In this document: one piece after another, positions 6,085-63,608 of the stretch
Layout: every line of letters starts with the position of its first letter
Numbering within the stretch: position 1 is the first letter of the stretch
NCBI GenBank assembly: GCA_964016885.1
Contig: OZ024742.1
Location: 277,822,001 to 277,886,000, forward strand
Source: Eledone cirrhosa
Taxonomy: Eukaryota
Direction: 5' to 3'
Length of the DNA stretch: 64,000 nucleotides
Notes under the pieces: generated by a model
Told to the model about the DNA's origin: nothing
What the model saw: only the letters and a program-made list of their open reading frames with translations
The model's database searches: none
Position numbers and translations under genes: made by a program

Positions 6085-7490
<1,406 letters not shown>

Positions 7491-28200: not shown

Positions 28201-30210
28201 TCGGGAACCTGGTGGGAAAAGCGCAGACATGCGCAATCCCGTCCAGGTCCATACACGACAACCTCCACCTCGTGCGATACATCGTAGAGAGGGTAGGGAA
28301 CGAACCCGGCTTTGGTGGGGCCCTGATCAACTTGGATCAATCTAAGGCGTTCGATAGGGTTGACCATCGGTAGCTGGATGCGGTGCTCGCAGCGGCAGGC
28401 TTTGGACCCGTTTTCAGGGGCTGGATTGCTGCAATGCACAGCAGCAACACCTGCTCGAGGGTCAAGGTGAACGGCTACCTCTCGGAGCCGTTCCAAATCG
28501 CGCGATCCATCAGACAGGGATGCCCTCTCTCCTCCCTTCCTTCTGTATGTGCTGGCTCTCAAGCCACTACTGCGGAAGTTGGAGCTGTTGCAGGGAATCC
28601 CTTTGGAACCAGGATTTCGGAAAGCGGTGTCAGACTAAGCCGATGACGTGACAGTAATGGTGTCATGCGCCTCGGAAATCGAGCAGGTCGGCACCTTACT
28701 GGAGGAATACGAAAGGTTTACAGGAGCCAAGCTGAACCGGGACAAGTCCGTCGGTTTGCAACTCGGAACGCGGAAAGGAAAACCGATTCCCTCCGACGGC
28801 GTCGTCGGACACTGGACGGAGGGACCGGTGAAGCTGCTCGGAGTCTGGTTCGGACCGGACCTCCAGGTGGAGAAGAACTGGGATGAGGTAACGGACAGAG
28901 TGTTTGCACTCACCCAGAAGTGGGCCGAGTGCAAACTATCCCTGAAAGGTCAAGCGGACGTGGCGAATACTTATATAGCGTCCGTCATCTACTACCGCTT
29001 GACCGTCGTGCCTTGCCCAGCGAAAACGCTCGCCAAAATGGAGCGCGCGCTCTTCCGATTCCTTTGGAAGTAGCGGGCCCCTCTGGTGAGGAGTTCCATC
29101 TGCTATCGAACCCTTCGAACGGAGGGCTGGGGATGCGTAGATACGCATTAAGGCTACGGCACCTCCAGGTATTCCTCACCGGTAGAGCCGGTGTGGGCCC
29201 CTTTGGTGAGGCGAGCCTTTCCGAGACTCGTCTCACTCACCGAGCTGCAATCCTGGGTCAAGCAAAGACCGAGAAAAGTGGGCGACTGGCACATTGAATG
29301 TGCCCAGGTGCTCACGGCCCTCTGGAAAGCGGATCCGGCAATCAGTGGAGACTCAACCTCAACATTCTATAGAGGGTTGGTGCGCAGCAAGTGCGACGAC
29401 GCTCTCGGAGAGGCTCTGGGCATGGAGGAAAACGAGCTAGCCAGTCTGTTCGGAAGGACGTTTGGCCCGGGACCGATGGACAACTTCCAAAATTCCCTGG
29501 CTTGGCAGTGCTACCGAGGAGCTCTACCCGTTCGGGACAAGCTCTACAGACACGGGCGCCAGGGTAGGGACCCTTCGAAGAAGATCTGTCAGAGATGCGT
29601 GTGTGACGAGGAAACAGTCGCGCACGCATTCCCACACTGCCCGGGCGTTGCTGACATGTGGGGCTGTGTGGAACGACTACTGTCGTGGGTGGGACCAATC
29701 CGGTTGACCACCGAGTACATTGTCACGATGAAACCGCCTCCCCCCTTCAAAAACGAAGGAGAGGCTGTTTTCCTCTGTGTGATAGCTATGTCGAAAGAGG
29801 TTGTATGCTGGACGACGTTGAAAGGGCTGAGGTCAGACACCTTTCTCTCCGGCCAACAACTGGTCCTTTTTTTCAAGTATCATTTTAGAAGAAGGATCAG
29901 AATGGAGGGTCAGGTGCTCTACCCCAGCAAGTTTTATGAAAGGTGGGTGAAAGTGGCGAGAATGGCCCGAGTGAATGGGTCTTCTCTCTATATCAGCCTG
30001 TAGGTGAGAGAGGAGAAGGGACACTCGCTTTTTGTGCTCCTGAGGAGGAGGGTTGCGACCCACCCCAACGCCCCCTCCCTATTGAGGACTTCGATTGTTG
30101 AATTTGATTTGTTATATATTTTTACACGTCCCTTGAAATGTATGTAAACTCCCCTCTTGTATTTTTCCCAATCTTTGATGCCCTGGTGGCAAATAAATAG
30201 AAAGTTATAA
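25246..30210 (+). mobile_element. Tx1-like LINE copy B: 5'UTR + ORF1 + ORF2 with most of the APE domain deleted, degenerate
   Basis: ORF1 pieces 25450-27110 (N-rich, SFA, CYHCSRSGDLRASC); abrupt join to late APE (WTWTN..SRLYLDRF..SDH..YWKLN); RT KSPGLDG, DQSKAFDRVDH; CQRC..HC; followed by (ATCT)n. Confidence 0.92.
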
Positions 30211-30269
30211 ATCTATCTATCTATCTATCTGTCTATCTATTATTTATCTAGCTATCTATCTCTCATTAT

Positions 30270-30453: not shown

Positions 30454-30472
30454 TATATATATATATATATAT

Positions 30473-39529: not shown

Positions 39530-39640
39530 TAGTTGTTTCTACTTTTGGCACAAGGCCAGCAATTATCCAGTACATTACTGGTACATTATTTTACCGATCC
39601 CGTAAGGATGAAAGCAAAGTTAACCTCGATGGGATTTTAA
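39530..39640 (-). mobile_element. SINE 3' half (main family)
   Basis: Reverse complement of the core and tail. Confidence 0.7.
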
Positions 39641-43377: not shown

Positions 43378-45829
43378 CCCATGGTGGAGGCGCGACGTGG
43401 CAACAAGTCCACAATTCGGTCTTTGTTCTGATCAAAACGGGCGCATGTGGCTCGAACCCGAGCAGATGTTTGCGGCTTTTCAACAGCACTTTGCTCAATT
43501 GTTCGGGAGCGGCGGCGGGCCGGATCGGAGTATGGACTTCGGTGCATACATCGACGGACTGTAAATCGCCAGGTTTGGATGGTCTGCCCTACGAGCTTTA
43601 TGCGTATATGCCAGACATGTTCGGTGACCTCTTGGCAGATGTCTACTGCAATTGGCAGCAGAGGGGAGCATTCCCAGTTTTGTGAGCCGGGGAGCGGTGG
43701 CGCTGCTGAGAAAAGACCCGAACAAGGGGGACGTTATAGACAACTTCAGGCCCATAACTCTGCTAAACGCAGAGTTTAAGATTTTGGCCAAGGTGTTAGC
43801 AAAGATTTGGCGCTTGTCGTCGGTGATCTGGTGGGAGAGGCGCAGATATGCACCATTCCGGATTGATCCATCCACGACAACCTCCATCTCATGCGATACA
43901 TCATAGAGAGGGTGGTTAAGGAACCTGGCTCAGGTGGGGCCCTGATCAACTTGGATCAATCTAAAGCATTTGATAGGGTCGACCATCGGTACCTGGCTGC
44001 GGTCCTCGAGGCGGCCGGCTTCGGGCCCGTTTTTAGGGGCTGGATCGCTGCGATGCACAGCGGCATCTGCTCGATTGTGAGGGTAAATGGTCACCTGTGG
44101 CAGCCGTTCAGCATCATGCGCTTGTTCCGACAGGGTTGCTCCCTCTCATCCCTCTTGTATGTACTGGCCCTCGAGCCGTTACTGCACAAATTGGAGAAGA
44201 TGCGGGGGTCCCACGCGAACTGGGATGCGGAAGATCCGTGTCAGCTTACGCCAACCACGTCACCGTGGTGGTGTCGAGCACCAAACACGTCCAGATGCTC
44301 GGCACCGCTCTCAAGGAATACGAAGCGGTGACAGGAGCAAAGATAAACCAGGAAAAGTCGGTAGGCTTGCAGCTCGGCACCTGGAGAGGAAAGTCCATGC
44401 GGTCCGACAGCGTCGTGGCGCGCTGGACGAAAGGACCAGTTAAATTACTCGGGGTCTGGTTGGGTCCGGACCTCCAGATGGAGAACAACTGGAGCGAGGT
44501 CACGAGCAGGGTAGCCTCTCTCACCCAGAAATGGGCCGAGAGCAGGATGTTTCTGAAAGGTCGGGCGGAGGTAGTGAATGCGTACATAGCGTCCGTCATC
44601 TGCTACCGCCTGACCGTCGTACCTTGCCCCCGCCCAACTCTGACCAAAATCGCTTTTTGTGGAAGGGACGGGCTCCCATGGTCAGACTATCCATTTGCTG
44701 TCAACACCCGTTGCGTGGAGGACTAGGCATGCCGTGGCTGATGATGCGCAAACAAGCGCTGAGGCTACGATATCTCTGGTGCTTCCTTGACGGAGAACAG
44801 GTGTGGTCGCGGTTTGCCAGACGCGCGTTTTCCCAGCTCGTCTCCTTGACGGAGCTGCAGTCCTGGATCAGGAAGAGACCGAGAGATAGCGCTTGGAAGC
44901 TGGAATGTCTCCAAGCGCTCACCACCCTCTACCAGCTGGGCACTACTATCGGTGGGACATGCACCTCGGCGTTCTATAGAGGGCTAGTGGAGGGAAAGAG
45001 CGACGACGTTCTCGGGGAGACTCTGGGCGTCGAAGATTCCAGCTGTTCGCTCTCTTTAAGAGAACTTTGAGACCGGGACCTATGGACAACTTCCAGAATC
45101 CCTGGCCTGGCAGTGCTACCGGGGAGCGTTGCCGGTTCTGGATAAGTTCTACAGGCAAGGAGGTGCTGTCAGCCAAGCCTGTCCGAGATGCGCGCAGGGT
45201 GACGAAACCGTCCTGCACGCACTCGTTCAGTGCCCGAGGATTGCTGACTTGTGGAGCTATGTCGAACAGCTGCTGTCGCGTGTAGGACGGATCCGGTTAT
45301 CGACTGAGTCCATTGCGCAGATAGCCCCGCCCGCTTCCTTTAAAGTGGAGGAAGGGCAGGCAGTTTTCATCTGTCTGGTGGCCATGGCGAAAGAGATTGT
45401 GTGGTGGACAAGGTTGAAAGGGTTGAAGACACTTTCCTCTTCGGCCAATCCCAGATTAACTTATTCAAGTTCATTTGAAGAGGAAAATCAGGGTGGTGAG
45501 GCAAGTGTTGTCTTCTAGTAAGTTTGTTGAAAGGTGGGTGAAAGTGGCGAGTCTGGTCCGAGTGAACGGGCCCGCTCTGAGTAGACTGAGGAGTGGGAAA
45601 AGTGAGAGAGGGCGCTTGCCCTGGTAGTCAGGGCGGCCGTGGAAATTGTGTGACCCTCGGAGGTTTCCCCCTTTTTTGTGAATTTTTGTTGTTTGAATTT
45701 TTTGGGGATTTCTAGCCCAATTTTGTTATAACCTGTTTACACGGCCAAAACCCACTTTGTATCGTCCTGTACCGTCCTGTGCCGTCTGTAATGTTTTTCT
45801 TGATGTCAGCCCTTGTGGCCGATAAAGAA

Positions 45830-45830
<1 letters not shown>
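43378..45830 (+). mobile_element. Tx1-like LINE copy C: 5'-truncated, degenerate RT + CCHC
   Basis: KSPGLDGLPYE, NFRPITLLN, DQSKAFDRVDH, CPRCAQGDETVLHALVQC; 3' end GCCCTTGTGGCCGATAAAGAAA then (TTA)n at 45831-45865. Confidence 0.92.
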
Positions 45831-45865
<35 letters not shown>

Positions 45866-48492
45866 GTTCTTTGAGTCTCAGTCATTGATGTTAGTTAACT
45901 GGAAAGTTTGTTGATATGAATATCAAGCCACTACCTGCAGCCTCAGATATTCAGGACGTATCGGAGGGTTCTTGCTGTTCCCAGCAAGCATGCCTTTTGA
46001 AGTGTTCCAAAAAGCGGGGCGAGACCAATTTTCTTTAACCATCCCTGGAAACTCTTTGAGATAGTACCTAGTGCGCCTATGACAATCGGGACCACTTTGA
46101 CCCCATGGCAGTTCCAAATCCTTTTCACCTCCCACCTTTAAGTCCTGGTATCGGTTAATTTTCTCCATCTCCTTCTCTTGCACTCTCGTGTCGAATGGGC
46201 AGGCTACATCCACAATCAGGCACGATCTTTTTCACTTGTCCAAAACTACCAGGTCAGGTCTATTGTGTTCCAGTTTCTTGTCCGTCTGTATCCTAAAATC
46301 CCACAGCACCTTCACCTGATCGTTTTCCATTGCCGACTCTGGCTTATGCTCATACCACTTTTCAAAATGTGGTAAATTGTTTACTTTTCATAGGTGCCAG
46401 TGGATCACCCTGCCCATCACATCATGTCTCCAGCCCTTATAGTGAGTCTGGCTAGGTGTTTACACTCGGATACAATGTGAGCCACAGTCTCCTCTCTCTC
46501 TCTCCACAGATCCTGCACAGTGGGCTAGCCTCCTCCTTGTAAATATGGTGTTTCAGCCACTTCGTTTTGAGGGCCTGCTCTTGCGCAGCCATTAGCATTC
46601 CTTCTGTAGCCTTTTTAAGGTCTCCTCTATTCAACCAGTTCCATGTCTGTGGATATCTAAATTCAGTTTTCTCAAAGAAGGTACTATGAAGGGATTTTTC
46701 ATGAAGGTTGCTCATTCTCCTTGATATTTCTTCCTTGGACATCTGCTGGTCTATTGTCCTCTCCTTCAGTAAAATTCTGAGCATTGGCTCCTTACTATCA
46801 GTCACGTATTTGTGTAGGTTGTTTTTCGCCATCTGAACACAGTCCTCTATGCTGATAAGACCTCTTCCACCTCCAGATCTCCTTAAGTAGAGTCTATCGA
46901 CATCACTCCTCTCGTGGAACATGTTGTAGATAGTCAATAGCTTCCTAGTCTTCCTATCCATTTCTTTTTGTTCAGCAACATTGCATCTAAGAATTCCCGC
47001 ACTGTACCTAATAATAGACACAGCTCGGGAATTTACTGCACTTATGGCATTCCTACTGTTCAGATGTGACTTTAATACGCTCCTTACTCTCCGAATGTAT
47101 TCAGATCTTATCAATTCCTTCATTTTTTTGTTCTTGATGTCATCAGCCTCCAGAACACCTAAATATTTGTATCCTTCTTCAGTATCAATTTCCTTTATCA
47201 TCTCACCTGTTGGTACCTGGATTCCGTTGCTTCTGCTCAATTTACCCCTCTTCATCACAAGGACTCCACACTTACTAATACCAAATTGCATACATATATC
47301 ATTGCTGAAAATACGGACAGTGTCAACAAGCACATCCAACTCCTTCTCACTCTTCCCAAAGAGTTTAAGATCGTCCATGAAGAGGAGGTGGTTGATGGTA
47401 AGCTCTCCCTTTCCCAACTTGTATCCTGCTCTCACTTTTCGCAGTATAATGGTCAGGGGATCAGGGCAAGGACAAACAACAGAAGGGACAAACTATTTCC
47501 CTGGAAGATACCTCTCTTGATCCTCACGCAACCCAAGAATCATCCGCCCGATGTTAACTCTGTTTTCCAGGACTTCATACTTTTGCTCAACAACTGTCTG
47601 ATGTTATCTGCCACCCTGAAGATCTCTAGGCTTTTGGTTATCCAAGAATGAGGTACCATGTCGAATGCCTTTTTGTAGTCTATCCATCCCATGGCAAGAC
47701 CAGTGTGTCTCCTCCTGCAATTCCTCATTACCATCTTATCAATAAGTAACTGGTCCTTTGTACCACGGGACTTCTTTCGGCATCCTTTCTGTTCGTCCGG
47801 TAACAAGTTGTTTATGTGGAGGTGATAGTAGATTTCCTAAGGCACAATGCTTGTTAACAGTTTCCACATTACGGACAGACATGTGATAGATCTATAGTTG
47901 GTAACATCATAACCCTTGGTTCGGTCTTTCATTACCAGAACTGTGGTACCTTTTGTCAACCACTCTGGTACCTCACCTGACATCAAGCAGTCATTGAACA
48001 TGTTTGTCAGTTTCGGGTTGAGGGATCTTATATTTTTAATCCAATACCCCTGCACACCATCTGGGCCTGGTGATTTCCAGTTGGTTAGTTTTCTGGCCTG
48101 CCCCTGAAGAGTTTCAATTGTGATACTCAAATCAGTTTGTTGGTGAGCCTGTTCACTAATCTCCTTTTGTACTGTCTCAATCCACACTGCCTGATAATTA
48201 TGTTTAACATTCTGCTCCCATATTCCTCTCCAGAATGTCTGAGTTTGTTCCGCCTCAGGGATAAAGTCGTTGCCTCTTTCTTTCCCTTCAAGCTGTCCAA
48301 ACAACATCTTCTGGTTGTTGTCAAACATGCGGTTCTGTCTATACTGACTGACTCTGTTCTCGTATCGCCTGATTTTTGCACTCTTTGCTACAATGCGTTG
48401 CTTCAGTTCCTCTATGATAATATTTAGCTTTTTCCTCCCAGTTTTGTACTTTATTTCCAGTCTATTTTTAGTGTCTATGTTTTGTAGTGTCC

Positions 48493-48493
<1 letters not shown>
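45866..48493 (-). mobile_element. R4/Dong-like REL-endonuclease retrotransposon, 5'-truncated, degenerate
   Basis: [109 protein letters not shown]; (TAA)n on both sides. Confidence 0.9.
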
Positions 48494-48532
<39 letters not shown>

Positions 48533-51500
48533 GAGTCTGAACGGACGTCTTTTTGCTCGCTCTCGTAAGTTTATTTATTTACCTGTCAAAACTTATTTAT
48601 TGAATTTTGTTGTTGTTGTGTAAGGCATACAAGCCCTTGGACTTTGCCCTGTGAAGGGGAAAGTATAATATTTGGGCCTTTTGGCCCAAATATTTGAACT
48701 TTTATACATTTAAAAGAATTATCGAGAAAAAAAAATAAAAAAAAACATGGCTGAGCCCCCCCCCCCCCCCCCTCCGCGATATGTCTGCTGTCGGGCGACA
48801 ACGACGTAGAAGTTGAGAGAAGCGCTACTACGGCGAAATTAACAGAAATTGATACAACAAACACCACCACAAACAACGTGAACAAAGACAGAAATGATAA
48901 CAACACTGAGAACTCTAATTTTGAATAAAATGACAGTAACAGCGACAACCAAAATACAGATAACAGAAAAAATGACAACAAATGCAACAACAATATCAAC
49001 GCCACTAACATGGAAACAAATAGCGACAACAGCAACAATACCAACTGCACCGACAACAACGGCGGCACCAAAGAAAACAATGATAACAGCAACAACACCA
49101 ACAAGAACAACAACAACAACAACACCACCAACAAGAAGAACACTTTCGCTAAGGCAGCAGCCAAAAAGGGGCCATGCTTCAACATGGACCTCTCAAATAA
49201 AGATGAAAAGTTGTCCCAGGCCTGGAAGCTCATCAAGCAAGAGCAAACCTGGGCCAACTTAACTGTCCCGGTAGAAGCTATTGAGGCAGTGGAGCGCAGA
49301 ACGGTACATTATAGATGCATCTCAGCACAAACCAAAAGGGCAGCTTTAATTCCACAAACAGATGTCAAAGTCGCGCTGAGGTGCATCAGAGATGACACCG
49401 ACTACATAGCGAGGGGCAGACAATACGGCACCATTTCGGTGTTGTTTAAGTCAGAAGCCCCTGCTATGAAACACGCTATGACACCTTGCACAACCAGCAA
49501 GGTATAAATTACCCCTCCCACATGGGAAAAAAAACGGCCCCTCTCCGCATTCCCAGAATCCCAACAGGACTTGACATGTGGTGGCTTCTGGGATGTGTGA
49601 TAGTGGAGGTGATGGATACCGTCCCGATAGAAGTGACAAGAACTGCCAGAGAGGACTGGTCCAGGGTGGACTTGGAGATACTTCTCCAGATCAGGCCGGT
49701 GAATGTGAAGACAATCCCGGACCACATCCGCCTTCAGAATGGGACGGTCATTCATATTATGACCGAGGACAAAAGGCTGCATTGTTTTGTTTGTGGGGAA
49801 AAAACCCATTTGCGAGCCTTCTGCCCTCAACGTTTGAAGGATGTAAGAGGTCGAAGGGCTCCACTGCTGCCGACGCCGGGGCGAGGACTGCAACCAACAC
49901 CAGCACCGGAGATACGAGACAGCTTTCCTCGGGACGTGGGAACCCCGAACGTAAAACCCACTTCAAGACTTTTAAAGGGTTTCCCAAAAGAAACCCCACC
50001 AACTATGGAGGTCGAACCACCCGACCTTCACAAGAGCCCGGAAGGTAAGTAAACCTTTCCTCTCTCTGTTTTAGCCTGCCAACATGGCCGTATTAAGAGT
50101 AGAAAGTTTAAATGTTCGAGGCCTGGGATCGTCCTGGAAGCAGGGTCACCTGCTCAACGACCTCAGGTCTCTAGAGATGGATGTAATTGCCGCCAGCGAG
50201 ACCAGGATTTCCGACACGCGCGTACTAGCCCCCATTTTCGACGACTATCAGATCTTTGCATCTGTTAGTCGGCCAGGAATGGGAGGTGGGGTGGCAGTGC
50301 TGTTTAGAAAAGGCCTGGATATCGAGGTAAGGTCGATCTTCCGGGACCCGGACGGGAAGTTGGTGGTCCTGGACGTGAACAATAACGAAGGTGGTGCCTT
50401 TAGACTGGTGGCCGTCTACGCCCTTACCGGGGAAGGACGGCCGGACTTCTTTAGACGCCTGGATGCCTTTCTTGGTACGTCTCGCCCTTTACTGTTAGCG
50501 TGGGACTGGAACGGCATCTTAGACGCACGCTGGGACTGTGTGGGAGTATCCGATAGGAGCGGGGGGTGCAAAAGCCTCAAGTACCTGATCAACCAGTTCC
50601 AACTGTCTGACAGGTACCGACTAGATTTCCCCAATGCACCAGTGTGGACTTAGACTAACTGCATAGGGTCATCTAGATCGTATATAGACAGGATATTCAT
50701 TAGGAAAATAGACAGAAATAGTGTAAGCTGTCCACGTTTTAAAACGGTCGTCTATTCAGATCACAAGTTTGTGATCTGTATGGTCGACCTAGATAAGACG
50801 CGTAGGTTAGGACCTGGTTACTGGAAGCTGAACATGTCATTTCCGGCACGTAAGGCTTACAGGGAGCAGGTCAACAATTTAGTTAAGAAAACGTTGACAG
50901 GGGTTGTCGTCAACAATAGATGGTGGGGGCCTCTCAAAAGAGAGATTAGAGTAATGTCGATAGAGTTTAGTAAAGAAGTAGCGTTAGAGAAAAATAGAAA
51001 GGAGGGGGAGTTGGTAGATAAGTTAGACGAGGCTATTTGTAGTGGCATTGCAACTAATGTGCTAGCGGCGAGAATGGCATTAGACCATTTCTTCAATGCG
51101 AAACACGAAGGTTGCATTGTCAGAGCTAAGGCGCGTGCTCTGAGAAACGAGGAAACCAAAGCTGTTCGATGGGCCCGCGTGGAAGAGGCGCAGCGTGGTA
51201 ATAAAACCACGATTAGGTCTTTGACGGATCGAGATGGACACGAGCTGAACGATTCCAAACGGATGTGTGAGGCCTTTCGCCAACATTTTGTTCGGTTATT
51301 CGGGGGAAGTGGCGGGTCAGAGACGGTGGCGGAATTCAGTCCCTACCTCGATGGCTTGCCGCAACTCTCGACGGCCGACGCTGGGCGCTGCGAAAGTCCG
51401 ATTACTTCAGCCGAGATTCAGGATGCCCTTGTCGGCCGCATGAGGCGCAAGTCACCTGGTTTGGATGGTCTGCCCTACGAGCTTTACGTAAATATGCCAG

Positions 51501-52020
51501 ACTTGTTCTCCAATCTCCAAGAAGCGCTCTACTGCAACTGGCAGCAGAACGGGAGTATTCCCAGTTCTGTGAGCCGGGGTGTAGTGACGCTGATAAGGAA
51601 AGACGAGATCAAGAGGGACACATTAGACAATTTCAGGCACATAACTCTGCTCAACACAGAGTTTAAGATTTTGGCCAGGGTGTTAGCGAAGAGGTTGGCG
51701 CTTGTCGTCGGGGATTTGGTTGGGGAGGCGCAAACTTGCGCAATCCCAACCAGGTCCATATACGACAACCTCCGTCTGATGCGATACGTCATAGAGATGG
51801 TAGGGTGTAAACCTGGCTTCGGTGGCGCTCTGATCAATTTAGATCAATCGAAAGCATTCGATAGGGTCGACCATCGGTACCTGGAGGCTGTCCTCAAGGC
51901 GGCTGGCTTCTACCCCGTATTCTGAAGCTGGATCGCTGCAATGCACTGCGGCACCTGCTCGGTGGTCAAAATTAATGGCCACCTCACGTAACCGTTTCAG
52001 GTCTCCCGACCGGTCCATCA
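48533..52020 (+). mobile_element. Tx1-like LINE copy D: 5'UTR + ORF1 + APE + first half of RT, 3'-truncated
   Basis: Begins right after (ATT)n 48494-48532; ORF1 CFVCGEKTHLRAFC; ORF2 from 50084 SLNVRGL, ASET, AVYA, DWN, SDH, YWKLN, KSPGLDG; breaks at the QG motif. Confidence 0.92.
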
Positions 52021-55000
52021 AGGACCGTCCAAACCAGGCGATTTACCCCTCGTGCAATTAGCCATCGCTTCCCGTATTTCACCGGCTGTTATTGGCTTTT
52101 CCCAACACTGTGCTGCGGTCGTCGAGAGCCGAGGCAGTCCGTCGAGGTATGCACTGAAGTCCATACCCGATCCGGCCCGCCGCTGCTCCCGAACAGTTCA
52201 GCAAATAGCTGCTGAAAAGCATCACACATCTGCTCGAGTTCGAGTAACACGCGCCCGTTTTGGTCAGATAAAGACCGAATTGTGGCTTTGTTGCCACGTC
52301 GCGCCTCTGCCACCCGGGCCCATTGGACGGCTTTTGTCCCCTCGTGTTTCAGAGCACGCGCTCTAGCTCTGACAACGCAGCCTCGTGTTTTCCGTTGAAG
52401 AATTGGTCGAGTGCCAATCTCGCCGCAAGCACGTCGGTTGCGATGCCTGTCCTAAACGCCTCTTCTAGCTTTCTGACTAGCTCTCCCTCTACTCTATTTC
52501 CCTCTATCACTAGTCCTTTGCTAAACCTAATCGACTCTACTTTAATTGCCCTTTTCAAGGGGAACCACCACCTATTGTTGACGACCGCTCCGTCAACGCC
52601 CGCTTAACTAATACGCTAATCCGGTCTCTGTAGGTTTTGAGCGCTGGGAAAGACGCGTTCAGCTTCCAGTAACCGGGTCCTTGTCTATGAAGTCTGTCTA
52701 TGTCGATCTCAAAGATCACAAATTTGTGGTCTGTGTAGTCGACTATTTTAAATTGTGGACAACTTATACTAGCCTTATCTAGTTCTCTGCAGAATACCCT
52801 ATCGAGATACGATCTGGATGACCCCATGCGGTTTGTCCATGTCCACATTGGCACATTCGGGTGATCCAGTCGATACCTGTCAGACAGTTCAAAACGTCTG
52901 AGCAGGTTGGTGAGGCTCTTGCACCCTCCTCCCCTATCCACTAGCCACACACATCCCAGCGTGCGTCCAAGATATCGTTCCAGTCGCCCACTAACACTAA
53001 AGAGCGGGACATTCCAAGAAAGGTCTCTAGACGTCTGAAGAAATCTGGCCGTCCTGTCCCTGTCGGGGCATAGACGGCTACTAGCCTGAAAGCGTTGCCT
53101 TCGGTGCCGCTTACGTCCAGCACCACCGACTTACCTTCTGGGTCCAGGAAGATGGTCCGTATGGCGAGACCCAAACCTTTCCGAAACAACACGGACGGCT
53201 CAGAGATGCGTACACCTCGTAACCGTCGAAGATCGGTGCGAAAGCTTGTGTTTCGGAGATTCTCGTCTCGCTGGTGGCCACCACATCCATGTTTAGTGAC
53301 CTGATGTCGTTAAACAAGTGAGCCTGCTTCCAAACCGAGCTCAAGCCACACACGTTTACACTTCCGATCCTGAATACGGCCATGTTGGGAGAGGAACGGG
53401 GCAAGTGAGAAAGGATCACTTACCTTGATCGTCTGGTGAAGGGACCGTTGAATCGTCCCTTTGGCTGGTCGTCGGCTCTTCTGTGAGTATATCCGAGTAT
53501 ACTCTCCGGTTGAGTGTCCCTCCTAGGTCTCTGAAATCACCAACTGCGTTGAGGAAATTCATTTTAATGTTTGTATATTGTTTCTGTGATATTTTTACCA
53601 GTCTTATGTTCGTTCGTGTTTTGATTGGTGCTGGTATTATGTAGTCGTGCTGTGAAATATGTTTTCAATTATTTAAGTCATTAGTTTCTTATTGTGTGTA
53701 TTTATTGCTGAGTATTTCTTTTTCTGGGGGTGATGTGGGGTTCTGCTATTTTCTTGTCGTTGTTGCTGGGTGTGTTGTTTTATTGTTGTGTTTGCGATGT
53801 TGGTGCTTGTGCTGGTGTTGTTGAAAAGTTGTCGTTGTTGGCGGTGGGGTTGCCGCCGGCGGTGATGGTAGTGCTAGTGTGGATGGTGATGGTGTTGGTG
53901 GTGTTGCTGCTGTAAGTCTCTTTGCAGTAGCCTTCACCCTTTTTTCATTTCTTCCCTCCCTTTTCGAAGGCGACGATGCGCTGCTTCTGCGTTTGTGCCT
54001 TCTTGCGACCTTTTGCCATCCCTCTCCCACCTCACACTCCATGTCCGATTCTGTGAGGTCGGGGAGGGGTACCAGCCCCACTTTTTCACTTGTTCTTGTT
54101 GGTGATGGTTGCAGTGGAGTCTCTGTTGCAGATGCAGTTGGTATTACTGTTGTTGTTGTTAATACTTCCACTGCTGCTGCTGTTCTTGATTTCCGTGGTG
54201 TGGGTATGGGTGCCACGGACCTATTCTTCCTGCTTGCCGCCTGTCCTGTTCCTGGTAGCAGTGGAGCCGGTTTCGGAAGGAGGGGGTCCTCCTTTCTCGG
54301 GGTCTTCTCATTGCAGAAGGCCCTGGGGTGAGTCTTCGACCCACAGCGATCTTTTCAGGCGTTTGCCATCAACACTTATGGGAAGTTGAGTGCCGTTATC
54401 GAAGTCTATCACATCCGAGATAGCTTCGATGCACTCCTGGTTGGTTTGAATTAACATCTCAATGGAGGCGCCGACCCAATCTTCTCGTACTTTTTTCTGT
54501 ACTTGCAGTACGGTTGTTTTGTCCTCGAATCCAACGAGGACAGACGCGGCCAGCCAAGAAGGGGCCATCCCGGGTGCTGGGAGGTGTGACTTGGGTCAGT
54601 TTGACCCTCACAATTTTTTGCCTTCAGTCGGAGGGCACCAACGCCATTTCCTCGTGCCTTAGGGTTACTAAGGATTGAGCCTTCGCCTTCTGGGGTGTAG
54701 AAAAAAGCACGTACACGGTGGCATATTTCTTGCCTCGGGTGATATGCTTTTTCCGCTGCCACACCGACCCTAAGGCTTTTTGTATTTGAGCCTCTGTGGC
54801 TCTTTCAACCCTACGTGATTTTGTGCTTACTGTACGGTACGTGACCGTACAGTGCTGTTGGGTTTCGAAAAATTCTTCGGCTGCCTTGCAGTTGCTCGTT
54901 GTCCGGTTTTCGTCACCATCTTCCTTGCTTCCTGTAATTCCTCATTTGTTATAAGGATGGTTTCCAGCTTCTTTGCGATACCTGCAAACGCGATTGGTTT

Positions 55001-55050
55001 TTCTTTCTTGTTGTTGTTATCATCAGAGTCAATAGGTACAGAAGGGAGGA
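52021..55050 (-). mobile_element. Tx1-like segment E (inverted): ORF1 + APE + pre-RT linker up to KSPGLDG
   Basis: Minus-strand ORF1 pieces (AFAGIAKK, RTVTYR, LPISVDG); ORF2 start MAVFRIGSVNV at 53383; AVYAP, GDWN, TDH, YWKLN. Confidence 0.9.
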
Positions 55051-57190
55051 GAGATTTCATGATTTTTGCCAAGGTGTTAGCAACGAGATTGGCGCGTGTC
55101 TTCAAGGGTCTGGTGGGAGAGGCGCAGACATGCGACATTCCGGACAGATCCATACACGACAACCTCCACCTCATGCGATATATGATAGAGAGGGTTGTTA
55201 AGGAACCTGGCACGGGTGGGGCCTTGATCAACTTGGATCAATCCAAACCATTCTATAGGGTCGACCATCGGTACCTGGCGGCGGTCCTCGAGGTAGCCGG
55301 TTTCGGGCCCGTTTTCAGGGGTTGGATTGCTGAGATGTACAGCGACATCTGCTCAGTTGTGAGGGTGAACGGTCACCTGTCGCAGCCGTTCAGCATCATG
55401 CGTTCGGTCCGCCAGGGTTGTCCCCTCTCGTCCCTCTTGTACGTATTGGCTCTCGAGCCGTTACAGCACAAACTGGGGGCGACGAGAGGCGTCCCACGCG
55501 AACTAGGATGCGGGAAATCCGAGTCGGCTTACGCCGACGACGTCACCGTGGTGGTATCAGACACGTCCAGAAGCTCAGAACCGCTCTCAAGGAATACGAA
55601 GCGGTGACAGGAGCAAAAATAAACCAGGAAAAGTCGGTGGGCTTGCAGCTCGGCACCTGGATAGGCAAGTCCATGCCGTCTGACAGCGTCATGGGGCGTT
55701 GGAGGGACGCAACGGTTAAATTGCTCAGGGTCTGGTTCGGACCGGACCTCCAGATGGACAAAAACTGGAGCGAAGTGACGATCAAGGTGGCCTACCTCAC
55801 CCAGAAATGGGCCGAGAGGAAGCTGTCCCTGAGAGGCCGGGCGGAGATGGCGAATGCGTAAATCGCATCCCTCATCTGCTACCGCCTCACTGTCGTCTCT
55901 TGCCCCGGCTCAACTGTCACTAAAATGGAGCATCTCTTCTTCCGCTTTTTGTGGAAGGGACGCGCTCCCATGGTCAGATAATCCCTCTGCTGTCAACACC
56001 CGTTGGGTGGAGGACTGGGCATGCCATGTCTGATGATGCGCAAACATGCGTTGGGGCTGCGACATCTCTGGTGCTACCTTGATGGTGAACAGGTCTGGTC
56101 GCCGTTCGCCAGGCACCTTTTCCCACAGCTCGTCTCCTTGACGGAGCTGCATTCCTGGGTCAGGAAAAGACCGAGAGATAGCGCTTGGAAACTGGAATTC
56201 TCCAGGCGCTCACTGCTCTCTGCCAGCTGGGCACCAGTATCGGTGGAACATCCAGCTCGGCATTCTATAGAGGACTAGTGGAGGGGAAGAGCGACGACGT
56301 TCTCGGAGAGATCCTGGGCGTCGAAGAAGATCAGCTGTTTGCTCTCTTCAGGAGAACTTTCAGCCCAGGGCCTATGGATAACTTCCAAAAATCCCTGGCC
56401 TGGTAGTGCTACCGGGGAGCTCTGCCGGTTCGAGATAAGCTCTACAGGCATGAAGTGCCGTCAGCCGAGCCTGTCCGAGATGCGCGCAGGGCGACGAAAC
56501 CGTCGTGCACGCACTCGTTCAGTGCTCGAGCATTGCTGACTTGTGGAGCTATGTCGAACAGTTGCTGTCGCGTGTAGGACTGATCCGGTTATCGACTGAG
56601 TCCATTGTGCAGATGCTCTCGCCGTTGTCCTTCGAGGAGGAAGGGCAGGAGGTTTTCATCTGCCTGGTGGCCATGGCGAAAGAGATTGTGTGGTGGACAA
56701 GATTGAAAGGGTTAAAGACAGACACTTTCCTCTTCAGCGAATCCCTAATTAACTTTTTCAAGTTTCACTTGAAGAGGAAAATCAGGGTGGAGAGGGAAGT
56801 GCTGCCTTCTAGCAAGTTTGTTGAAATGTAGGTGAATGTAGCGAGAATGGTCCAAGTGAACGGGACCGCTCTGAATATGTCTGTAGTTTGAGAAATGGAA
56901 AAGTTGAGAGAGGGCGCTTGCCCTGGTGGTCAGGGTGGCGGTGGTCTTTTGTGTGGTTTTCGCCACGAGTAACCCTCGGAGGCCCCCCCCCCCCATATTG
57001 GGGAATTTTTCATTGTTTCAATTTTCATTTTTATTGTTTATATATATATATGTTTCTATGTCTTCTTTTTCTTTCTTATATAAATAATAAAAATCTTTAC
57101 ACGCACAAAACCAACATCGTACCGTCCTGTACGGTCCTGTGCCACCTGTAATGTTTTTCTTGAAATCAGCCCTTGTGGCCAATAAAGAAA
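55051..57190 (+). mobile_element. Tx1-like segment F: RT + CCHC + 3'UTR
   Basis: IFAKVLA.RL, RQGCPLS, AYADDV; 3' end GCCCTTGTGGCCAATAAAGAAA then (ATT)n at 57193-57222. Confidence 0.92.
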
Positions 57191-57222
57191 TCATTATTAT
57201 CATTATTATTATTATTATTATT

Positions 57223-60200
57223 GGCGACCTACGTAGGAAATCGTATTATCGTGAGCTCCGCAAAGGTTTGTTATTTTCAGTTGTTTCAAATTGCCATTTA
57301 TGGAAAATTTTTGTTGTTAAGTGTTTATAAGTTCACATATATTGCTTTCGGAAAGGACACTCAAAAAGATTGGGGCCTTGAGCCCAAAATTTAAACTTTT
57401 ATAAATATCAAACAAAAAATTTCTTTGAAAAAATCATGGACGACTCACAGCCACACCAGGCTGACAGCCTTCCTCACAAACTAACACCTCACGCGAACAC
57501 CACCATTGTAAATATTACTACGTTTGCCAACACTAAAAATATAAGCAGTAGCAATAATTTAAATTTGTCTCATGCAGACATTCATTTCCCGCCATTACCA
57601 AAAACTGCAGGTGTTAAAGCCGCTCCCCCCACCACCACAGCGACAACAGAAACAAAAGAAAAAAATAAATTATTATCTCGTGACATCGAAATGGATTCAC
57701 CCAGAATCGACTCTTCCACACCGAACACCACTGACGCCACCACCACCACAACTGAAACTAAAAATAACAATAACAAAAATAACAATAACAACAACAGCAA
57801 TAACAACAATGAGAATAACAACAAAAACACCAACACCACCGCAAATGTGTCGTTTGCCAAAGCAGCCAAGAAATGTGAAACAATCGAGGTAACTCAGGAG
57901 GAATTAAATGAAGCCAAGAGAATGGTAAAGATAGATGGGTACAGGGTCAGCCTCACCCCCCACCTATGCACCGTGTCTTATCGGACGATTAACACAAAAT
58001 CGCACCCAGTGGAACGGGTATCCGAGTCCCAAATCCCAAAAGCTTTGGGACATGTGTGGGCGAAAAAAACCTACATCAGACGTGGGCAGAAATATGGAAC
58101 CGTGGACGTGTTCTTTGGAACACCACAAGAGGCCAGAGAGCACCCCATGTCTCCATTAAGAAGCGACGACTTCACACTCGTCCCAAGCTATTGTGGCCAG
58201 AGACTCATGAAGATCAGGGTGACCCACGTTCCACTGGCCATCGAAATTCTCTGGCTAATGGCGGCCGTCCTCGCCGGCATCGAGGCCAACACCAAAATAA
58301 TTGAAAAATCAAAAGAAAAGCAGGAGAACTGGTCCGGATCTGGGATGGAGCTCCTGATCCAAGCGGACCAAAAAAGCATTGAGGAAATCCCAGAGGTAAT
58401 AGACCTCACTGACGGCAGCCACCTCACAGTAATCGTCGAGGGCAGAAGTCCTAGGTGTGTCGTTTGTGATGAAGGAACCCACCTAAAGGCTTTCTGCCCT
58501 CAGGCTAAAAGGTTGAGGCCACCTCTCTTACCCACCCCAGTGACTCAACCATCAACACCACCAGCAGCAGAAATGGCAGCAACAACTGTAGCAGCAACAA
58601 CAGAAGCAACTGTAGCAGCAACAACCCCAGCAACAGTAGGAAAATCAACACCACCACCACCCACCGCGCCAGAACTAGCACCAGCACCTCCACCATCCAC
58701 CACACCACAAACCAAAGCCTGTGGAGGATTTTCCACTCCCCGACCTATCGCAACTGGAGACAGATCGTGACGACGAGGAGTGGGAAACTGTATCAGGGAA
58801 AAAGAAAAAAAGAAAAAGAAGACAAAAAAGAAAAACATTCTCTTCCTTCCCCCTCCAAAAACAAAATACAGAGGGAAACAAATAAACTATCAAACAACAA
58901 AGTTTGGACAGCTATGCCACCATCCCCACCAGCATCACCAACCCCATCACCACAAACACCAACACCATCACCATCATTAACCCCAACACTACCATCACCA
59001 ATACCACAAAAGTCACCAAAAAGCGAAACAGAAACAAACCCACAACAAACGCAAACAAAACAAAACAACCAAAACGATACACACTACACGGCATTAAATT
59101 TGAACAACAAGCAATTATTACATTACATCCAACACAACACCAGCATCACAGAAAAAGACTACACAACACCCAAAAGTTCACACCACCTCCACACATACAA
59201 ATCACTCGCATCACAAAGAAAACGTACACGACACTAAAACAAAAATTCCCCAAAGACATCGGAGACTTCCGACAAGCATTCTCCAGGCGGATTTATAAGG
59301 ACATCATTCCGGAGGAGGCCACAAGCAGTGAAAAGGATGGAGAAACCATCTTTCGTCTACGAGAAGTAAGGTAAGTGGTCTTTCCCATCTTTTCCACTCC
59401 TTTTCAACATGACCTCACTCAGAATAGACAGCATAAATGCGCATGGCTTGGGGTCGTCATGGAAGCAGGGCCACCTGCTCAACGACATCAGGTCACTAAA
59501 CATAGATGTAGTGGCCATCAGCGAGACCAGAATCTCTGAAGCACGGGCCTTCGTACCGATCTTCGGCGGCTACGTTGTGTACGCATCTCCCAGCCGTCCT
59601 GGATCGGGGGAGGAGTTGCTGTGCTTTTTCGGAGAAGTTTGGATCTCGCCATACGGGCCATCTTCCTGGACCCAGAAGGTAAGTTGGTGGTGCTGGACGT
59701 GACCAGCGGAGACGGGCAAGCTTTCAGGCTAGTGGCCATCTATGCCCCGACAGGAGCAGGGCGGCCTGATTTCTTCCGGCGTCTAGAGACCTTTTTTGGA
59801 ACGTCCCTCTCTTTAGTGTTAGTGGGTGACTGGAACGGGATCTAAGATGCACGCTAGGACTGTGTGGAATTAGCGGATAGAGGAGGAGGGTGCAAGAGCC
59901 TCACCAACCTGCTCAGGCGTTTTGAACTGTCTGACAGGTACTGATTGGATTTCCCGAATGTGCCAATGTGGACTTGGACAAACAGTATCGGGTCATCCAG
60001 ATCATATCTAGATAGAGTATTTTGTAGGGAAATAGATAGGTCTAGCATAGGCTGTCCACAATTCAAGATAGTCAGCTACACGGACCACTAATTCGTGATC
60101 TGTGTGGTTGACTTAGATAGGCTTCATAGACAAGGACCCGGCTACTGGAAGTTAAACGCGTCCTTACCAGCGCGCAAGACCTACAGAGACCGGATTAGCG

Positions 60201-62006
60201 AACTAGTTAAGCGGGCGTTGACGGGGGCCATCGTCAACAACAAGTGGTGGTTTGCTCTGAAAAGGGCGATTAGAATAGAGTCCATTAGGTTTAGTAAGGC
60301 TTTAGCCATAGAGAAAAATAGAGCAGAGGGAGAACTAGTTAGAAAATTAGACGAGGCGTTTAGCAAAGGCATCGCGACCGACGTACTTGCGGCGAAATTG
60401 GCCCTTGACCAATTCTTCAATGCAAAGCACGAAGGCTGCGTTGTCAGAGCTAGGGTGGGTGCTCTCAGACACGAGGGGACGAAAGCCGTTGAATGAGCCC
60501 GAGTGGCGGAGGCGCGTCGTGGCAACAAAGCCGCGGTCCGGTCTTTGGTGGACCACGACGGGCGCATGCTACTCAATCCCGGGAAAATGTGTGAAGATTT
60601 TCAGCGACACTTCGCTCAGCTGTTCGGGGGCAGCGGCGGGCCGGATCGAGGGATGGACTTTAGTATCTACCTTGACGGACTGCTGCGGCTCTCGGCCACT
60701 GCGGCGGAGTGTTGCGAAAAGCCGATAACAGCCGTTGAAGTACGGGAGGCTATGACTGGCTGCACAAGCGGTAAATCGCCTGGTTTGGATGGTCTGACCT
60801 TTGAACGTTATGTGCAGACGTCAGACTTGTTGGGAGGCCTCTTGGCGGACGTCTACTGCAACTGGCAACAGAACGGGAGAATTTCCCAGCTCTGTGAGCT
60901 GAGGAGCGGTGGCGCTGCTGAGAAAGGATCCGAACAAAGGGGATAACATAGATAAATTCAGGCCCATAACTCTGCTAAACAAGGAGTTCAAGATTTTGGC
61001 CAAGGTGCTAGCAAAGAGGTTGGCGCTTGTCGTTGGTGATTTGGTGGGAGAGTGGCAGACATGCGCCATTCCCGACAGATCCATCCACGACAACCTGCAC
61101 CTTATGCGATACATCGTGGAGAGGGTAGCTAGGGAACCTGGCACGAGTGGGTCCTAGATCAATTTAGATCAGTCGAAAGCTTTGGATAGGGTCGACCATC
61201 GTTACCTAGCGGCACTCCTGAGGGCGGCTGGCTTTGGGCCCGTCTTCAGAGGCTGGATCGCTGCCATGCACAGCGACATCTGCTCTGTGGCGAGAGTGAA
61301 CGGTCACCTTTCGGAACCGTTCAACATCATGCGCTCGGTCTGCCAAGGATGTCCCCTCTCGTCCCTCTTGTACGTATTGACTCTCGAACCATTACTGCAC
61401 AAACTGGAGACGTTGAGGGGGGTCCTGCCCGAACTAGGATGAAGAAGATCCGTGTCAGCATATGCGGACGATGTCACCGTAGTCGTGTCGAACGCCAAAC
61501 GCATCGAGGCGATCGGCACTACACTAAGAGAATACGAAGCGGTGACAGAAGCAATGATCAACCAGGAAAAGTCAGTGGGCCTGCAGCTCGGCACCTGGAG
61601 AGACAGGTCCATGCCGTCCAACAGCGTCGTCGGACGCTGGACGGACGGACCGGTTAAATTGCTAGGGGTCTGGTTCGGATCAGACCTCCAGACGGACAAA
61701 AACTGGTACGAGGTGACGAGCTGGGTGGCTTCTCTCAGCCAGAAATGGGCGGAGAGGAAGCTATCCCTGAAAGGTCGAGCGGAGGTGGCGAACGCGTACA
61801 TCGCGTCCGTCATCTACTACCGCCTGACCGTCGTACCTTGTCCTAAGCCTCGCCTGACTGCGCTGGAGCGTTTGCTCTTTCGCTTTTTGTGAAAGAGACG
61901 CGTTCCAATGGTCAGGCGGTCCATCTGCTGTCAACACCCACTACGTTGAGGGCTGGGCATGCCGTGGCTGATGATGCGCAGACACGCGCTCAGGCTACGA
62001 CATCTC
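57223..62006 (+). mobile_element. Tx1-like LINE copy G: 5'UTR, ORF1, APE, RT; 3'-truncated, degenerate
   Basis: ORF1 57436-59374 (one frameshift; CVVCDEGTHLKAFC); ORF2 from 59409 with APE and RT motifs (AYADDV); ends abruptly after HALRLRHL. Confidence 0.92.
57436..58770 (+). pseudogene. Tx1-like ORF1, longest open piece (444 aa)
   Basis: Poly-Asn, SFA motif, folded middle region, CX2CX4HX4C knuckle, Pro/Thr-rich tail; continues in another frame to 59374. Confidence 0.85.
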
Positions 62007-63489: not shown

Positions 63490-63537
63490 ATATGTGTTGT
63501 CCCCTTTTCTTGTGCGCCCTTGTGGCAAATAAAGAAA
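63490..63537 (+). mobile_element. ~45-bp Tx1-like 3' terminus in (TA)n
   Basis: TGTCCCCTTTTCTTGTGCGCCCTTGTGGCAAATAAAGAAA matches the 3' ends of copies A, B, C and F. Confidence 0.65.
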
Positions 63538-63608
63538 TATATATATATATATTATTCGTTTATTTATTTATTCATTTATTTATGTATACATGTATGCACA
63601 TATATACA

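What the first reader, a model, noticed from the sequence alone, without database searches (positions are those of the whole stretch)
43378..62006. Second Tx1 array associated with (ATT)n: possible target switch between sister families
Seen: C and F end in (ATT)n, and D and G start immediately after (ATT)n. A/B use (ATCT)n and a 45-bp stub at 63490 sits in (TA)n. All share the GCCCTTGTGGC-AATAAAGAAA type end. Inference: a radiation of related families partitioning different microsatellites, which would be a natural system for mapping APE target-specificity determinants. Caveat: the 5' end of C is not in a repeat.
Basis: partly seen in the sequence, partly recalled or inferred. Interest (0 to 1): 0.74.

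Follow-up and report, generated by a model that had tools for sequence, protein, structure and literature searches.

The report
Microsatellite-targeting LINE pile-up in an octopod
Two sister groups of jumping genes (LINEs), in what is probably an octopus-type genome, each sit inside their own simple repeat, ATT for one group and TATC for the other; fish and crocodile relatives are already known to do this, so it is a clean new example rather than a new kind of thing.

Summary
Window 43378-62006 is a stack of independent LINE insertions joined through (ATT)n. It holds C, E, a 5'-inverted F, and G, which are L1/Tx1-type elements on the + strand. D is not one of them: it is a 5'-truncated R2-like (Dong-like) element with a restriction-like endonuclease, on the minus strand, flanked by (AAT)n.

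In samples of 30 genomic copies per query (window copy included):
- Full-length G-type and E-type 5' ends are preceded by (ATT)n in 30/30 each.
- B-type 5' ends are preceded by (TATC)n in 28-29/30.
- 3' ends carry the same repeat in 26-28/30 (18-27/30 for A-type, depending on the count); the other group's repeat turns up in 0-1/30.
- Background is about 2% for ATT and 0.1-0.2% for TATC.

Upstream flanks are unrelated to each other and the junction register is fixed, so these are true microsatellite-specific insertions.

A DNA tree puts the three TATC lineages (A, B, stub-type) and the three ATT lineages (C/F, G, E) on opposite sides of one branch with 100% support. That fits a single target switch.

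The (TA)n reading of the stub is not supported: its lineage ends in (TATC)n elsewhere.

This is a known kind (Kibi, Koshi, crocodilian Tx1; Dong for TAA). The host and repeat units are new. Whether the endonuclease or the RNA tail picks the repeat stays open. Two earlier notes of this scan reported the same thing elsewhere in this genome.

The parts
22724..25150 (+). A: 5'-truncated LINE of the (TATC)n group (A lineage). It has a short (ATCT)n at 22702-22723 upstream and (TATC)22 at 25157-25245 downstream.
   Evidence: RVT_1 in ORF 22771-24111. 27/30 A-type genomic 3' ends carry at least 2 TATC units.
25247..30205 (+). B: near full-length LINE of the (TATC)n group. It is about 0.7 kb shorter than the 5.7 kb genomic copies. 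Its 5' end is GGAGAATATAGACG. It is followed by (ATCT)n at 30211-30261 and then a tRNA-type SINE at 30270-30456.
   Evidence: RVT_1 and zf-RVT. Genomic B-type 5' ends are preceded by (TATC)n in 28-29/30 and 3' ends followed by it in 27-28/30.
43378..45830 (+). C: 5'-truncated LINE of the (ATT)n group (C/F lineage), covering about position 3295 of a G-type copy to the 3' end. Its 5' junction is in unique DNA.
   Evidence: RVT_1 and zf-RVT ORFs.
45830..45865 (.). (ATT)12 shared by the 3' end of C and, read as (AAT)n on the other strand, the 3' end of D.
45866..48493 (-). D: 5'-truncated (2.6 of about 3.9 kb) RLE-type LINE, R2-like/Dong-like. It has an RT, a CCHC motif and a PD..D..EK nuclease motif. 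On its own strand it is flanked on both sides by (AAT)n.
48494..48532 (.). (ATT)13 between the 5' end of D and the 5' end of E.
48533..52022 (+). E: LINE of the (ATT)n group (E lineage). Its 5' end GAGTCTGAACGG is intact. It holds ORF1, APE and the start of the RT, and lacks the last 1.4 kb or so.
   Evidence: 30/30 genomic E-type 5' ends are preceded by (ATT)n.
52023..55060 (-). Inverted 5' part of F, covering about position 3585 back to 590 of a G-type copy (ORF1, APE and linker).
55061..57192 (+). F: 3' part (about position 3704 to the end) of a C/F-lineage LINE. Together with 52023-55060 it has the geometry of a twin-priming 5' inversion.
57193..57222 (.). (ATT)10 between the 3' end of F and the 5' end of G.
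57223..62006 (+). G: LINE of the (ATT)n group (G lineage). Its 5' end GGCGACCTACG is intact and ORF1 carries a CCHC knuckle. It is cut off at about position 4437 of roughly 5450. The rest is not found in the next 11 kb.
   Evidence: 30/30 genomic G-type 5' ends are preceded by (ATT)n.
63497..63538 (+). Stub: the last 42 nt or so of a third (TATC)n-group lineage (S), here followed by (TA)7.

Best explanation
The region is a pile-up of independent LINE insertions in (ATT)n microsatellites. The elements are L1/Tx1-type, with apurinic-type endonuclease (APE), RT and C-terminal zinc-finger domains. They belong to two sister groups: genome-wide, one lies inside (ATT)n and the other inside (TATC)n.

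Likely mechanism, inferred:
- The endonuclease would nick the repeat strand complementary to the element's tail.
- The freed 3' end would pair with the (AUU)n or (UAUC)n at the end of the RNA, beside a conserved small hairpin and AAUAAAGAAA box, and prime reverse transcription.
- A second cut in a fixed register of the repeat would give the exact 5' junctions seen.
- Each new copy brings its own repeat tail and so renews the target. Later copies of the same or sister lineages, a SINE with a similar tail, and a Dong-like RLE element in the opposite orientation then land next to it and build head-to-tail arrays.

Shown here: both flanks are the repeat, the register is fixed, lineage and repeat are linked, and the array members are different lineages.

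Inferred: which protein or RNA part reads the repeat, and the order of events.
For: Each census set is the 30 best of 40 scored hits and includes the window's own copy.

5' flanks of full-length copies:
- G-type has at least 2 ATT units next to the junction in 30/30, median run 11.5 units.
- E-type has 30/30, median 8.
- B-type has TATC in 28/30 (perfect units) or 29/30 (run count), median 6.
- DNA further upstream is unrelated between copies. It is another LINE tail in 6-9/30, a SINE tail in 2-6/30, and other DNA in 17-22/30 (by rough pattern).

Junction register:
- ...ATT|GG in 29/30 G-type copies.
- ...ATT|G in 28/30 E-type copies.
- ...ATCTATCTC|GGAG in 22/30 B-type copies; most of the rest are one letter off.

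3' ends:
- C/F-type carries ATT in 26-27/30 and TATC in 0/30.
- B-type carries TATC in 27-28/30.
- A-type carries TATC in 18/30 by the strict count and 27/30 by the run count.

Other evidence:
- Background is 1.7-2.7% for ATT and 0.07-0.2% for TATC.
- 5'-truncated copies cannot carry their own 5' end, yet 5 of 8 truncated B-type copies have (TATC)n at or within about 30 nt of the break. A in the window also does.
- Array members are 71-87% identical and belong to different lineages, so they are separate insertions.
- The tree splits {A, B, S} from {C/F, G, E} with support 100.
- Domains found are Exo_endo_phos, RVT_1 and zf-RVT. The best solved relative is human L1 ORF2p at E 4.5e-29, against 1e-12 for R2.
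- A 3-4 bp hairpin sits before AATAAAGAAA, with changes on both sides in 3 of 4 pairs; 0/500 shuffles reach its covariation score.
Against: - The samples are the best-scoring hits, meaning young copies most like the window's, not random copies. Candidate counts were 581-2175 per LINE query.
- 3 of 8 truncated B-type copies, and C in the window, have no repeat at the 5' junction.
- A few copies join other repeats: B-type L059 joins (TC)n, and A-type L067 and L083 join (GATA)n in the opposite orientation.
- One window SINE copy with an ATT tail sits at a plain ATTA site with a 13-bp target duplication, so a long repeat is not strictly needed.
- No copy with an intact ORF2 was seen among the 8 full-length loci read.
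- APE identity between the groups (57-63%) is only a little below that between ATT lineages E and G (65-71%). Nothing points specifically to the endonuclease.
- Clade membership (Tx1 versus L1 proper) was not tested against labelled references.
Confidence: 0.85

Rival explanations
1. Tail-pairing only. The endonuclease is not repeat-specific. The target is chosen because only nicked DNA ends that can base-pair with the RNA's terminal (AUU)n or (UAUC)n get extended. Under this reading, the switch between the two groups needed only a change of the tail unit.
For: - Tail unit and target unit always agree.
- APE is not clearly more diverged than the RT or C-terminus between the groups.
- A-type and stub ends join (TA)n where their own ...ATAT... 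tail letters could pair.
- One window SINE with a similar tail used a site with a single ATTA.
Against: - The 5' junction keeps one register in lineages whose 5' ends differ (GGCGACC versus GAGTCTG). That is easier to explain by a sequence-specific second-strand cut.
- Published work on related target-specific LINEs credits the endonuclease. This rests on passages of PMC4494074 and PMC3812793, not on a test here.
Confidence: 0.25
2. Non-specific LINEs with self-made repeat tails. The repeats are only 3' tails added by the reverse transcriptase. Copies insert anywhere, and arrays arise by chance or by tail expansion.
For: - 3' tails vary from 0-1 to more than 20 units.
- Some copies have only one or two units followed by unique DNA.
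Against: - The repeat also lies directly upstream of 28-30 of 30 full-length 5' ends in three lineages, with unrelated DNA beyond it, and upstream of 5 of 8 truncated copies.
- Background is about 2% or less.
Confidence: 0.03
3. The array was made by tandem or segmental duplication, or by recombination between repeats, not by repeated insertion.
For: The members C, E, F and G are head-to-tail in one orientation.
Against: - Members belong to different lineages at 71-87% identity, with different 5' and 3' untranslated ends.
- D is an unrelated family on the other strand.
- The same kinds of junction recur at many unlinked loci.
Confidence: 0.03

Closest known systems
Kibi and Koshi (Tx1 clade, teleost fish) and crocodilian Tx1 families
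   Same: They are APE-type LINEs of the L1/Tx1 group inserted specifically into microsatellites, with closely related families using different repeat units: (TC)n, (TTC)n, and (TTCC)n/(TTTC)n. This rests on passages of PMC4494074 and PMC3812793.
   Different: - Here the host is probably an octopod; the best protein hits are Argonauta and Acanthosepion.
- The units are (ATT)n and (TATC)n, which those passages do not list for this clade.
- Each target group has at least three lineages.
- Placement inside the Tx1 clade was not tested against references.
Dong (R4 clade; Bombyx, Anopheles, the snail Biomphalaria)
   Same: Element D and its family match Dong in several ways. They are RLE-type LINEs with (TAA)n/(AAT)n on both sides. 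Dong elements are reported to target TAA microsatellites, including in a mollusc (passage of PMC3812793). 'Dong-R4' is an abundant class in octopus repeat annotation (passages of PMC13282606 and PMC8967140).
   Different: - No phylogeny with Dong/R4 references was made.
- Here the family is often tail-to-tail with the APE-type ATT lineages (10/30) or with SINE tails (4/30), sharing one microsatellite on opposite strands.
Waldo and Mino (R1 clade, insects)
   Same: They are APE-type LINEs found in or targeting microsatellites (CA-type for Waldo; passage of PMC3812793).
   Different: They belong to a different clade (R1). The elements here are closest to L1 ORF2p among solved structures and carry zf-RVT.
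Stringent-type LINE/SINE pairs with a shared 3' stem-loop and repeat tail (eel UnaL2/UnaSINE1; recalled, not read here)
   Same: A small conserved hairpin sits before the terminal repeat, and a tRNA-type SINE carries a look-alike 3' end, GGCCTTGTGCC..AGTAGAAACA(ATT)n.
   Different: - UnaL2 is in the L2 clade and is not known to me as microsatellite-specific.
- The pairing of this SINE with these LINEs is inferred from sequence likeness only.

Membership tests
L1 group / Tx1 clade of non-LTR retrotransposons | ORF2 with an N-terminal apurinic-type endonuclease, a reverse transcriptase and a C-terminal zinc-binding (CCHC-type) domain | tested here: met
   - Exo_endo_phos was found in E, RVT_1 in A, B, C, E and F, and zf-RVT in B and C.
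- Intact relatives of about 1150 aa carry all three domains.
L1 group / Tx1 clade of non-LTR retrotransposons | RT closer to L1-group RTs than to other LINE groups | tested here: met
   The best solved relatives of the A-copy RT are human L1 ORF2p (E 4.5e-29). R2 proteins score 1e-12.
L1 group / Tx1 clade of non-LTR retrotransposons | RT phylogeny places the element with Tx1, Keno, Kibi and Koshi references rather than with L1 proper | not testable with these tools
   - No labelled Tx1 reference sequence could be obtained. Hits carried no such names.
- Indirect support: L1-Tx1 is the only L1-group class listed for Octopus vulgaris (table passage of PMC13282606).
Microsatellite-specific LINE (Kibi/Koshi-like behaviour) | The same microsatellite on both sides of the insertion, in one orientation, in a large share of copies (the criterion quoted in PMC4494074 is more than 20% of flanks) | tested here: met
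   - 5' flanks carry the repeat in 28-30 of 30 copies in three lineages.
- 3' flanks carry it in 26-28 of 30 for C/F and B, and in 18-27 of 30 for A depending on the count.
- The other group's unit appears in 0-1 of 30.
- Background is about 2% or less.
R2-like RLE LINEs / Dong-R4 (for element D) | A CCHC motif and a PD-(D/E)xK restriction-like endonuclease C-terminal to the RT, and no APE | tested here: met
   - A natural D-type ORF (L162, 528 aa) shows CRICGEREETVAHIVSEC, then RPD...IVGV...EK (IVDV in five of the other D-type copies).
- It aligns to the RT and RLE parts of solved R2 proteins at E 1.3e-11.
R2-like RLE LINEs / Dong-R4 (for element D) | Insertion in (TAA)n | tested here: met
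   - 29/30 genomic 3' ends are followed by at least 2 AAT units.
- 4 of 5 copies examined also have (AAT)n-type repeat at the 5' end.
R2-like RLE LINEs / Dong-R4 (for element D) | RT phylogeny with Dong/R4 references | not tested
   No labelled references were at hand. The name rests on the target, the domain type and the repeat classes reported for octopus.
Twin-priming 5' inversion (for F) | An inverted 5' segment placed directly upstream of a collinear 3' segment. The inner ends are the far-5' position and the breakpoint, with a small gap or overlap at the breakpoint. | tested here: met
   - 52023-55060 on the minus strand covers reference positions 3585 back to about 590.
- 55061-57192 on the plus strand covers 3704 to the end, leaving a gap of about 120 nt.
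- Target duplications cannot be read. The concept is recalled, not read here.

The most novel reading that the evidence does not exclude
The repeat is read mainly by the RNA tail, not by the endonuclease. On this reading, a change of the terminal unit from AUU to UAUC moved a whole clade to a new genomic niche. ATT/AAT microsatellites then work as a shared, self-renewing landing pad. It is used strand for strand by an APE-type LINE clade, an RLE-type Dong-like LINE and a SINE, which together seed and lengthen the microsatellites of this very repeat-rich genome.
Probability: 0.25. Interest if true: 0.6.

Novelty: new member of a known kind. Interest (0 to 1): 0.4.

Why it matters
Microsatellite-specific LINEs are known, but how they read a repeat is not settled. 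A review passage says the mechanisms 'are not well understood' (PMC3812793).

This genome offers a useful natural comparison:
- Two sister clades, each with at least three lineages, have different target units and hundreds to thousands of candidate copies.
- An unrelated RLE-type LINE uses the complementary strand of the same repeat.

That makes domain-swap and tail-swap experiments, and comparative mapping of specificity residues, practical.

It also bears on why octopod genomes are so rich in SINEs and simple repeats. For genome annotation, it explains head-to-tail LINE/SINE stacks joined by ATT or TATC repeats.

Tried and rejected
- Naming the clade: two searches of the large protein collection and one atlas look-up gave cephalopod and other relatives but no 'Tx1' label. 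The clade name therefore stays inferred.
- Intact copies: among 8 full-length loci (4 B-type, 4 G-type) none had an unbroken ORF2.
- APE signal: per-domain identity was computed on columns of an intact relative (P0122). Between a TATC lineage (B) and the ATT lineages it was APE 57-63%, RT 67-73% and C-terminus 50-51%. Between ATT lineages E and G it was APE 65-71% and RT 68-72%. The excess APE divergence is small and the copies are frameshifted, so I do not claim an APE-specific signal.
- First attempt at 5' junctions of C/F-type copies: one search was too noisy because of divergence. Only L002 gave a clear (ATT)n junction. The cleaner B-type family was used instead.
- (TA)n as a third target: rejected, because the stub's lineage ends in (TATC)n elsewhere.
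- The rest of G: not found in the remaining window or in the 9 kb beyond it.
- Literature: searches, with passages read, found no description of microsatellite-targeting L1/Tx1 elements in cephalopods. Subscription papers are not covered, including Kojima and Fujiwara 2004, which I know only through citations. Repbase entries and supplements were not checked.
Full report
**Observation.**
- C (43378-45830) and F (55061-57192) end in ...GCCCTTGTGGCC(G/A)ATAAAGAAA and run into (ATT)12 and (ATT)10.
- G begins at 57223 directly after the latter array.
- E, which the finding's text does not name, begins at 48533 directly after (ATT)13.
- D (45866-48493) fills the space between two (ATT)n arrays.
- A (22724-25150) and B (25247-30205) are bounded by (ATCT)n/(TATC)n.
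- A terminal stub of about 42 nt at 63497-63538 is followed by (TA)7.
- The window is very rich in simple repeats (240 rows). Even so, two or more ATT units within 21 nt occur at only 1.7-2.7% of background positions, and TATC at 0.07-0.2%.

**Anatomy of the array.** A self-comparison and mapping onto a natural G-type copy (L158:110-5560) give this layout:
- C covers reference position 3295 to the 3' end. It is 5'-truncated, with its 5' junction in unique DNA.
- E covers positions 1-4060. Its 5' end is intact and its 3' part is missing.
- 52023-55060 on the minus strand covers 3585 back to about 590.
- F on the plus strand covers 3704 to the end.
- G covers positions 1-4437. It is 92% identical to genomic G-type copies.

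The inverted block plus F has the geometry of a twin-priming 5' inversion. That concept is recalled, not read here. Its left end abuts E inside the RT region. I read this, by inference, as F's insertion at the (ATT)n before G having removed the last 1.4 kb or so of E. The rest of G is not found in the remaining window or in the 9 kb beyond it. The members are 71-87% identical and carry different untranslated ends, so they are separate insertions, not duplicates.

**What the elements are.**
- ORFs carry Exo_endo_phos, RVT_1 and zf-RVT.
- G's ORF1 has a CCHC knuckle.
- Intact relatives of about 1150 aa carry all three ORF2 domains.
- The nearest named proteins are from Argonauta hians and Acanthosepion pharaonis, so the host is probably a cephalopod, likely an octopod.
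- Among solved structures the RT is closest to human L1 ORF2p (E 4.5e-29) and far from R2 (1e-12).

This places the family in the L1 group. 'Tx1 clade' is likely for two reasons. L1-Tx1 is the only L1-group class listed in an Octopus vulgaris repeat table (passage, PMC13282606; also PMC8967140). Target-specific insertion is also typical of that clade (passages, PMC4494074 and PMC4640811). I could not test the name against labelled references.

**D is a different thing.** It is encoded on the minus strand. Natural copies of its family show an RT, a CCHC motif and an RPD...D...EK nuclease motif. They align to the RT and RLE domains of solved R2 proteins at E 1.3e-11.
- Its genomic 3' ends are followed by (AAT)n in 29/30 copies, median 9 units.
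- 4 of 5 copies examined, including two truncated ones and one of about 3.9 kb, also have (AAT)n-type repeat at the 5' end.
- In 10/30 copies the (AAT)n runs straight into the reverse complement of an L1/Tx1-type 3' end, and in 4/30 into that of a SINE tail.

D is therefore a 5'-truncated, Dong-like, (TAA)n-specific RLE element. It sits in the tail shared by C and E, on the opposite strand. Dong elements targeting TAA repeats, including in a snail, are on record (passage, PMC3812793).

**Genome census.** Each query returned 40 scored hits out of 581-2175 first-look candidates for the LINE queries and 78 for D. The 30 best, window copy included, were read with flanks.

3' ends:
- C/F-type: at least 2 ATT units in 26/30 (perfect units, within 24 nt) or 27/30 (run count, median 5, up to 16). 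TATC 0/30.
- B-type: TATC in 27/30 or 28/30, median 5, up to 24.
- A-type: TATC in 18/30 by the strict count, whose window started 8 nt before the repeat, and 27/30 by the run count.

5' ends of full-length copies:
- G-type: (ATT)n in 30/30, median 11.5 units. One case, L108, is marginal.
- E-type: (ATT)n in 30/30, median 8.
- B-type: (TATC)n in 28/30 or 29/30, median 6.

Beyond the repeat the upstream DNA differs from copy to copy. The register is fixed: ATT|GG in 29/30 G-type copies, ATT|G in 28/30 E-type copies, and ATCTATCTC|GGAG in 22/30 B-type copies with most others one letter off. Of 8 B-type copies truncated within the loci, 5 have (TATC)n at or near the break and 3 do not.

**Target switch.** An ML tree was built on about 1.8 kb of unaltered DNA (RT to C-terminus) from 12 natural copies. 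It separates {A, B, stub-type S} from {C/F, G, E} by one branch with support 100. Identity is 76-87% within groups and 70-75% between them. The tree is unrooted, so the direction of the switch is unknown.

The stub belongs to lineage S. Its 3' end is followed by (TATC)n in L025, L035, L131, L145, L221 and L222. The (TA)n at 63539 is therefore not a third specificity. It may be a case of priming on the ATAT part of the tail, and three A-type copies (L062, L082, L088) look similar.

**Mechanism.**
- Shown: both flanks are the repeat, the orientation is fixed, the register is fixed, and the tail unit equals the target unit.
- Inferred: target-primed reverse transcription in which the nicked repeat strand pairs with the RNA's terminal repeats, followed by a sequence-specific second-strand cut.
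- For the endonuclease: the fixed 5' register in lineages with different 5' ends argues for a sequence-specific enzyme.
- Not for it: the per-domain comparison shows no clear excess of APE divergence. A few off-target junctions and one window SINE at a plain ATTA site with a 13-bp duplication fit a role for tail pairing.
- I put about 0.25 on tail pairing being the main determinant.
- A small hairpin (GCC-loop-GGC; GGC...GCC in the SINE; ACC...GGT in a G-type copy) lies just before AATAAAGAAA. It shows changes on both sides in 3 of 4 pairs, and 0/500 shuffles reach its covariation score. With 13 sequences from 7 lineages this is modest support for a shared recognition element.

**Comparison and novelty.** The behaviour matches Kibi (TC)n, Koshi (TTC)n and crocodilian Tx1 families on (TTCC)n/(TTTC)n, where related families also differ in repeat unit. 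D matches Dong. New here are the probable host, the units (ATT)n and (TATC)n for this type of LINE, the depth of each group, and the strand-for-strand sharing of one microsatellite by an APE-type and an RLE-type LINE. My literature searches found no description of this in cephalopods. They do not cover subscription journals, Repbase or supplements. Two earlier notes of this scan (e1-9541347, e1-9574888) reported the same phenomenon at other places in this genome. This report adds the both-flank census, the tree, the identity of D and the inversion. Verdict: a real, well-supported feature and a new member of a known kind, of moderate interest.

Noticed in passing
window 12241-12426(+), 30270-30456(+), 39527-39640(-), 40670-40857(-), 40868-41056(-), 41362-41536(-): These are copies of a tRNA-type SINE. 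Its 3' end, GGCCTTGTGCC(A/T)AAAGTAGAAACA(ATT)1-3, resembles the LINE 3' box and tail.
- One copy (12241) has a 13-bp target duplication starting ATTA.
- Two copies are stacked head-to-tail (reported as a 199-bp tandem repeat).
- SINE tails precede 2-6 of 30 LINE 5' ends, and SINEs follow at least 8 of 30 C/F-type tails.
- The SINE is likely mobilised by the ATT lineages. That is an inference.
   Followed up: partly
window 13332-14393(-); L158:5660-7001: This is another LINE lineage, with a zf-CCHC in ORF1.
- In L158 its 5' end (GGTGAAGCCACGC) begins directly after an (ATT)n that follows a G-type 3' end and a 30-nt SINE stub.
- The window copy is 84% identical to it.
- It may be a fourth ATT lineage.
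   Followed up: partly
L162, L163 (C2:324.01-324.03 Mb); L168, L169 (C4:222.06-222.09 Mb): These are pairs of D-type copies 10-25 kb apart, each tail-to-tail with an L1/Tx1-type 3' end. L162 and L163 have identical 528-aa ORFs. This suggests local duplication of such composite blocks.
   Followed up: no
window 6086-7491: A very long (TA)n tract of about 706 units, 86% matches.
   Followed up: no
window 11251-11745: A minisatellite of 55 copies of the 9-bp unit TGGTGGTGA, strongly G-skewed.
   Followed up: no
window 37358-38598: Overlapping open frames of 264 aa (+) and 400 aa (-) with no Pfam match. Their nature was not examined.
   Followed up: no
window 48727-48772: The 5' untranslated region of E holds an A-rich run, then ATGGCTGAG, then a C16 run. 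G has a comparable 'ttggggccttgagcccaaaatttaaac' palindrome-like stretch. These may be conserved 5' UTR features of the ATT lineages.
   Followed up: no
window 5000-5701: A direct duplication of about 350 bp at 91% identity.
   Followed up: no
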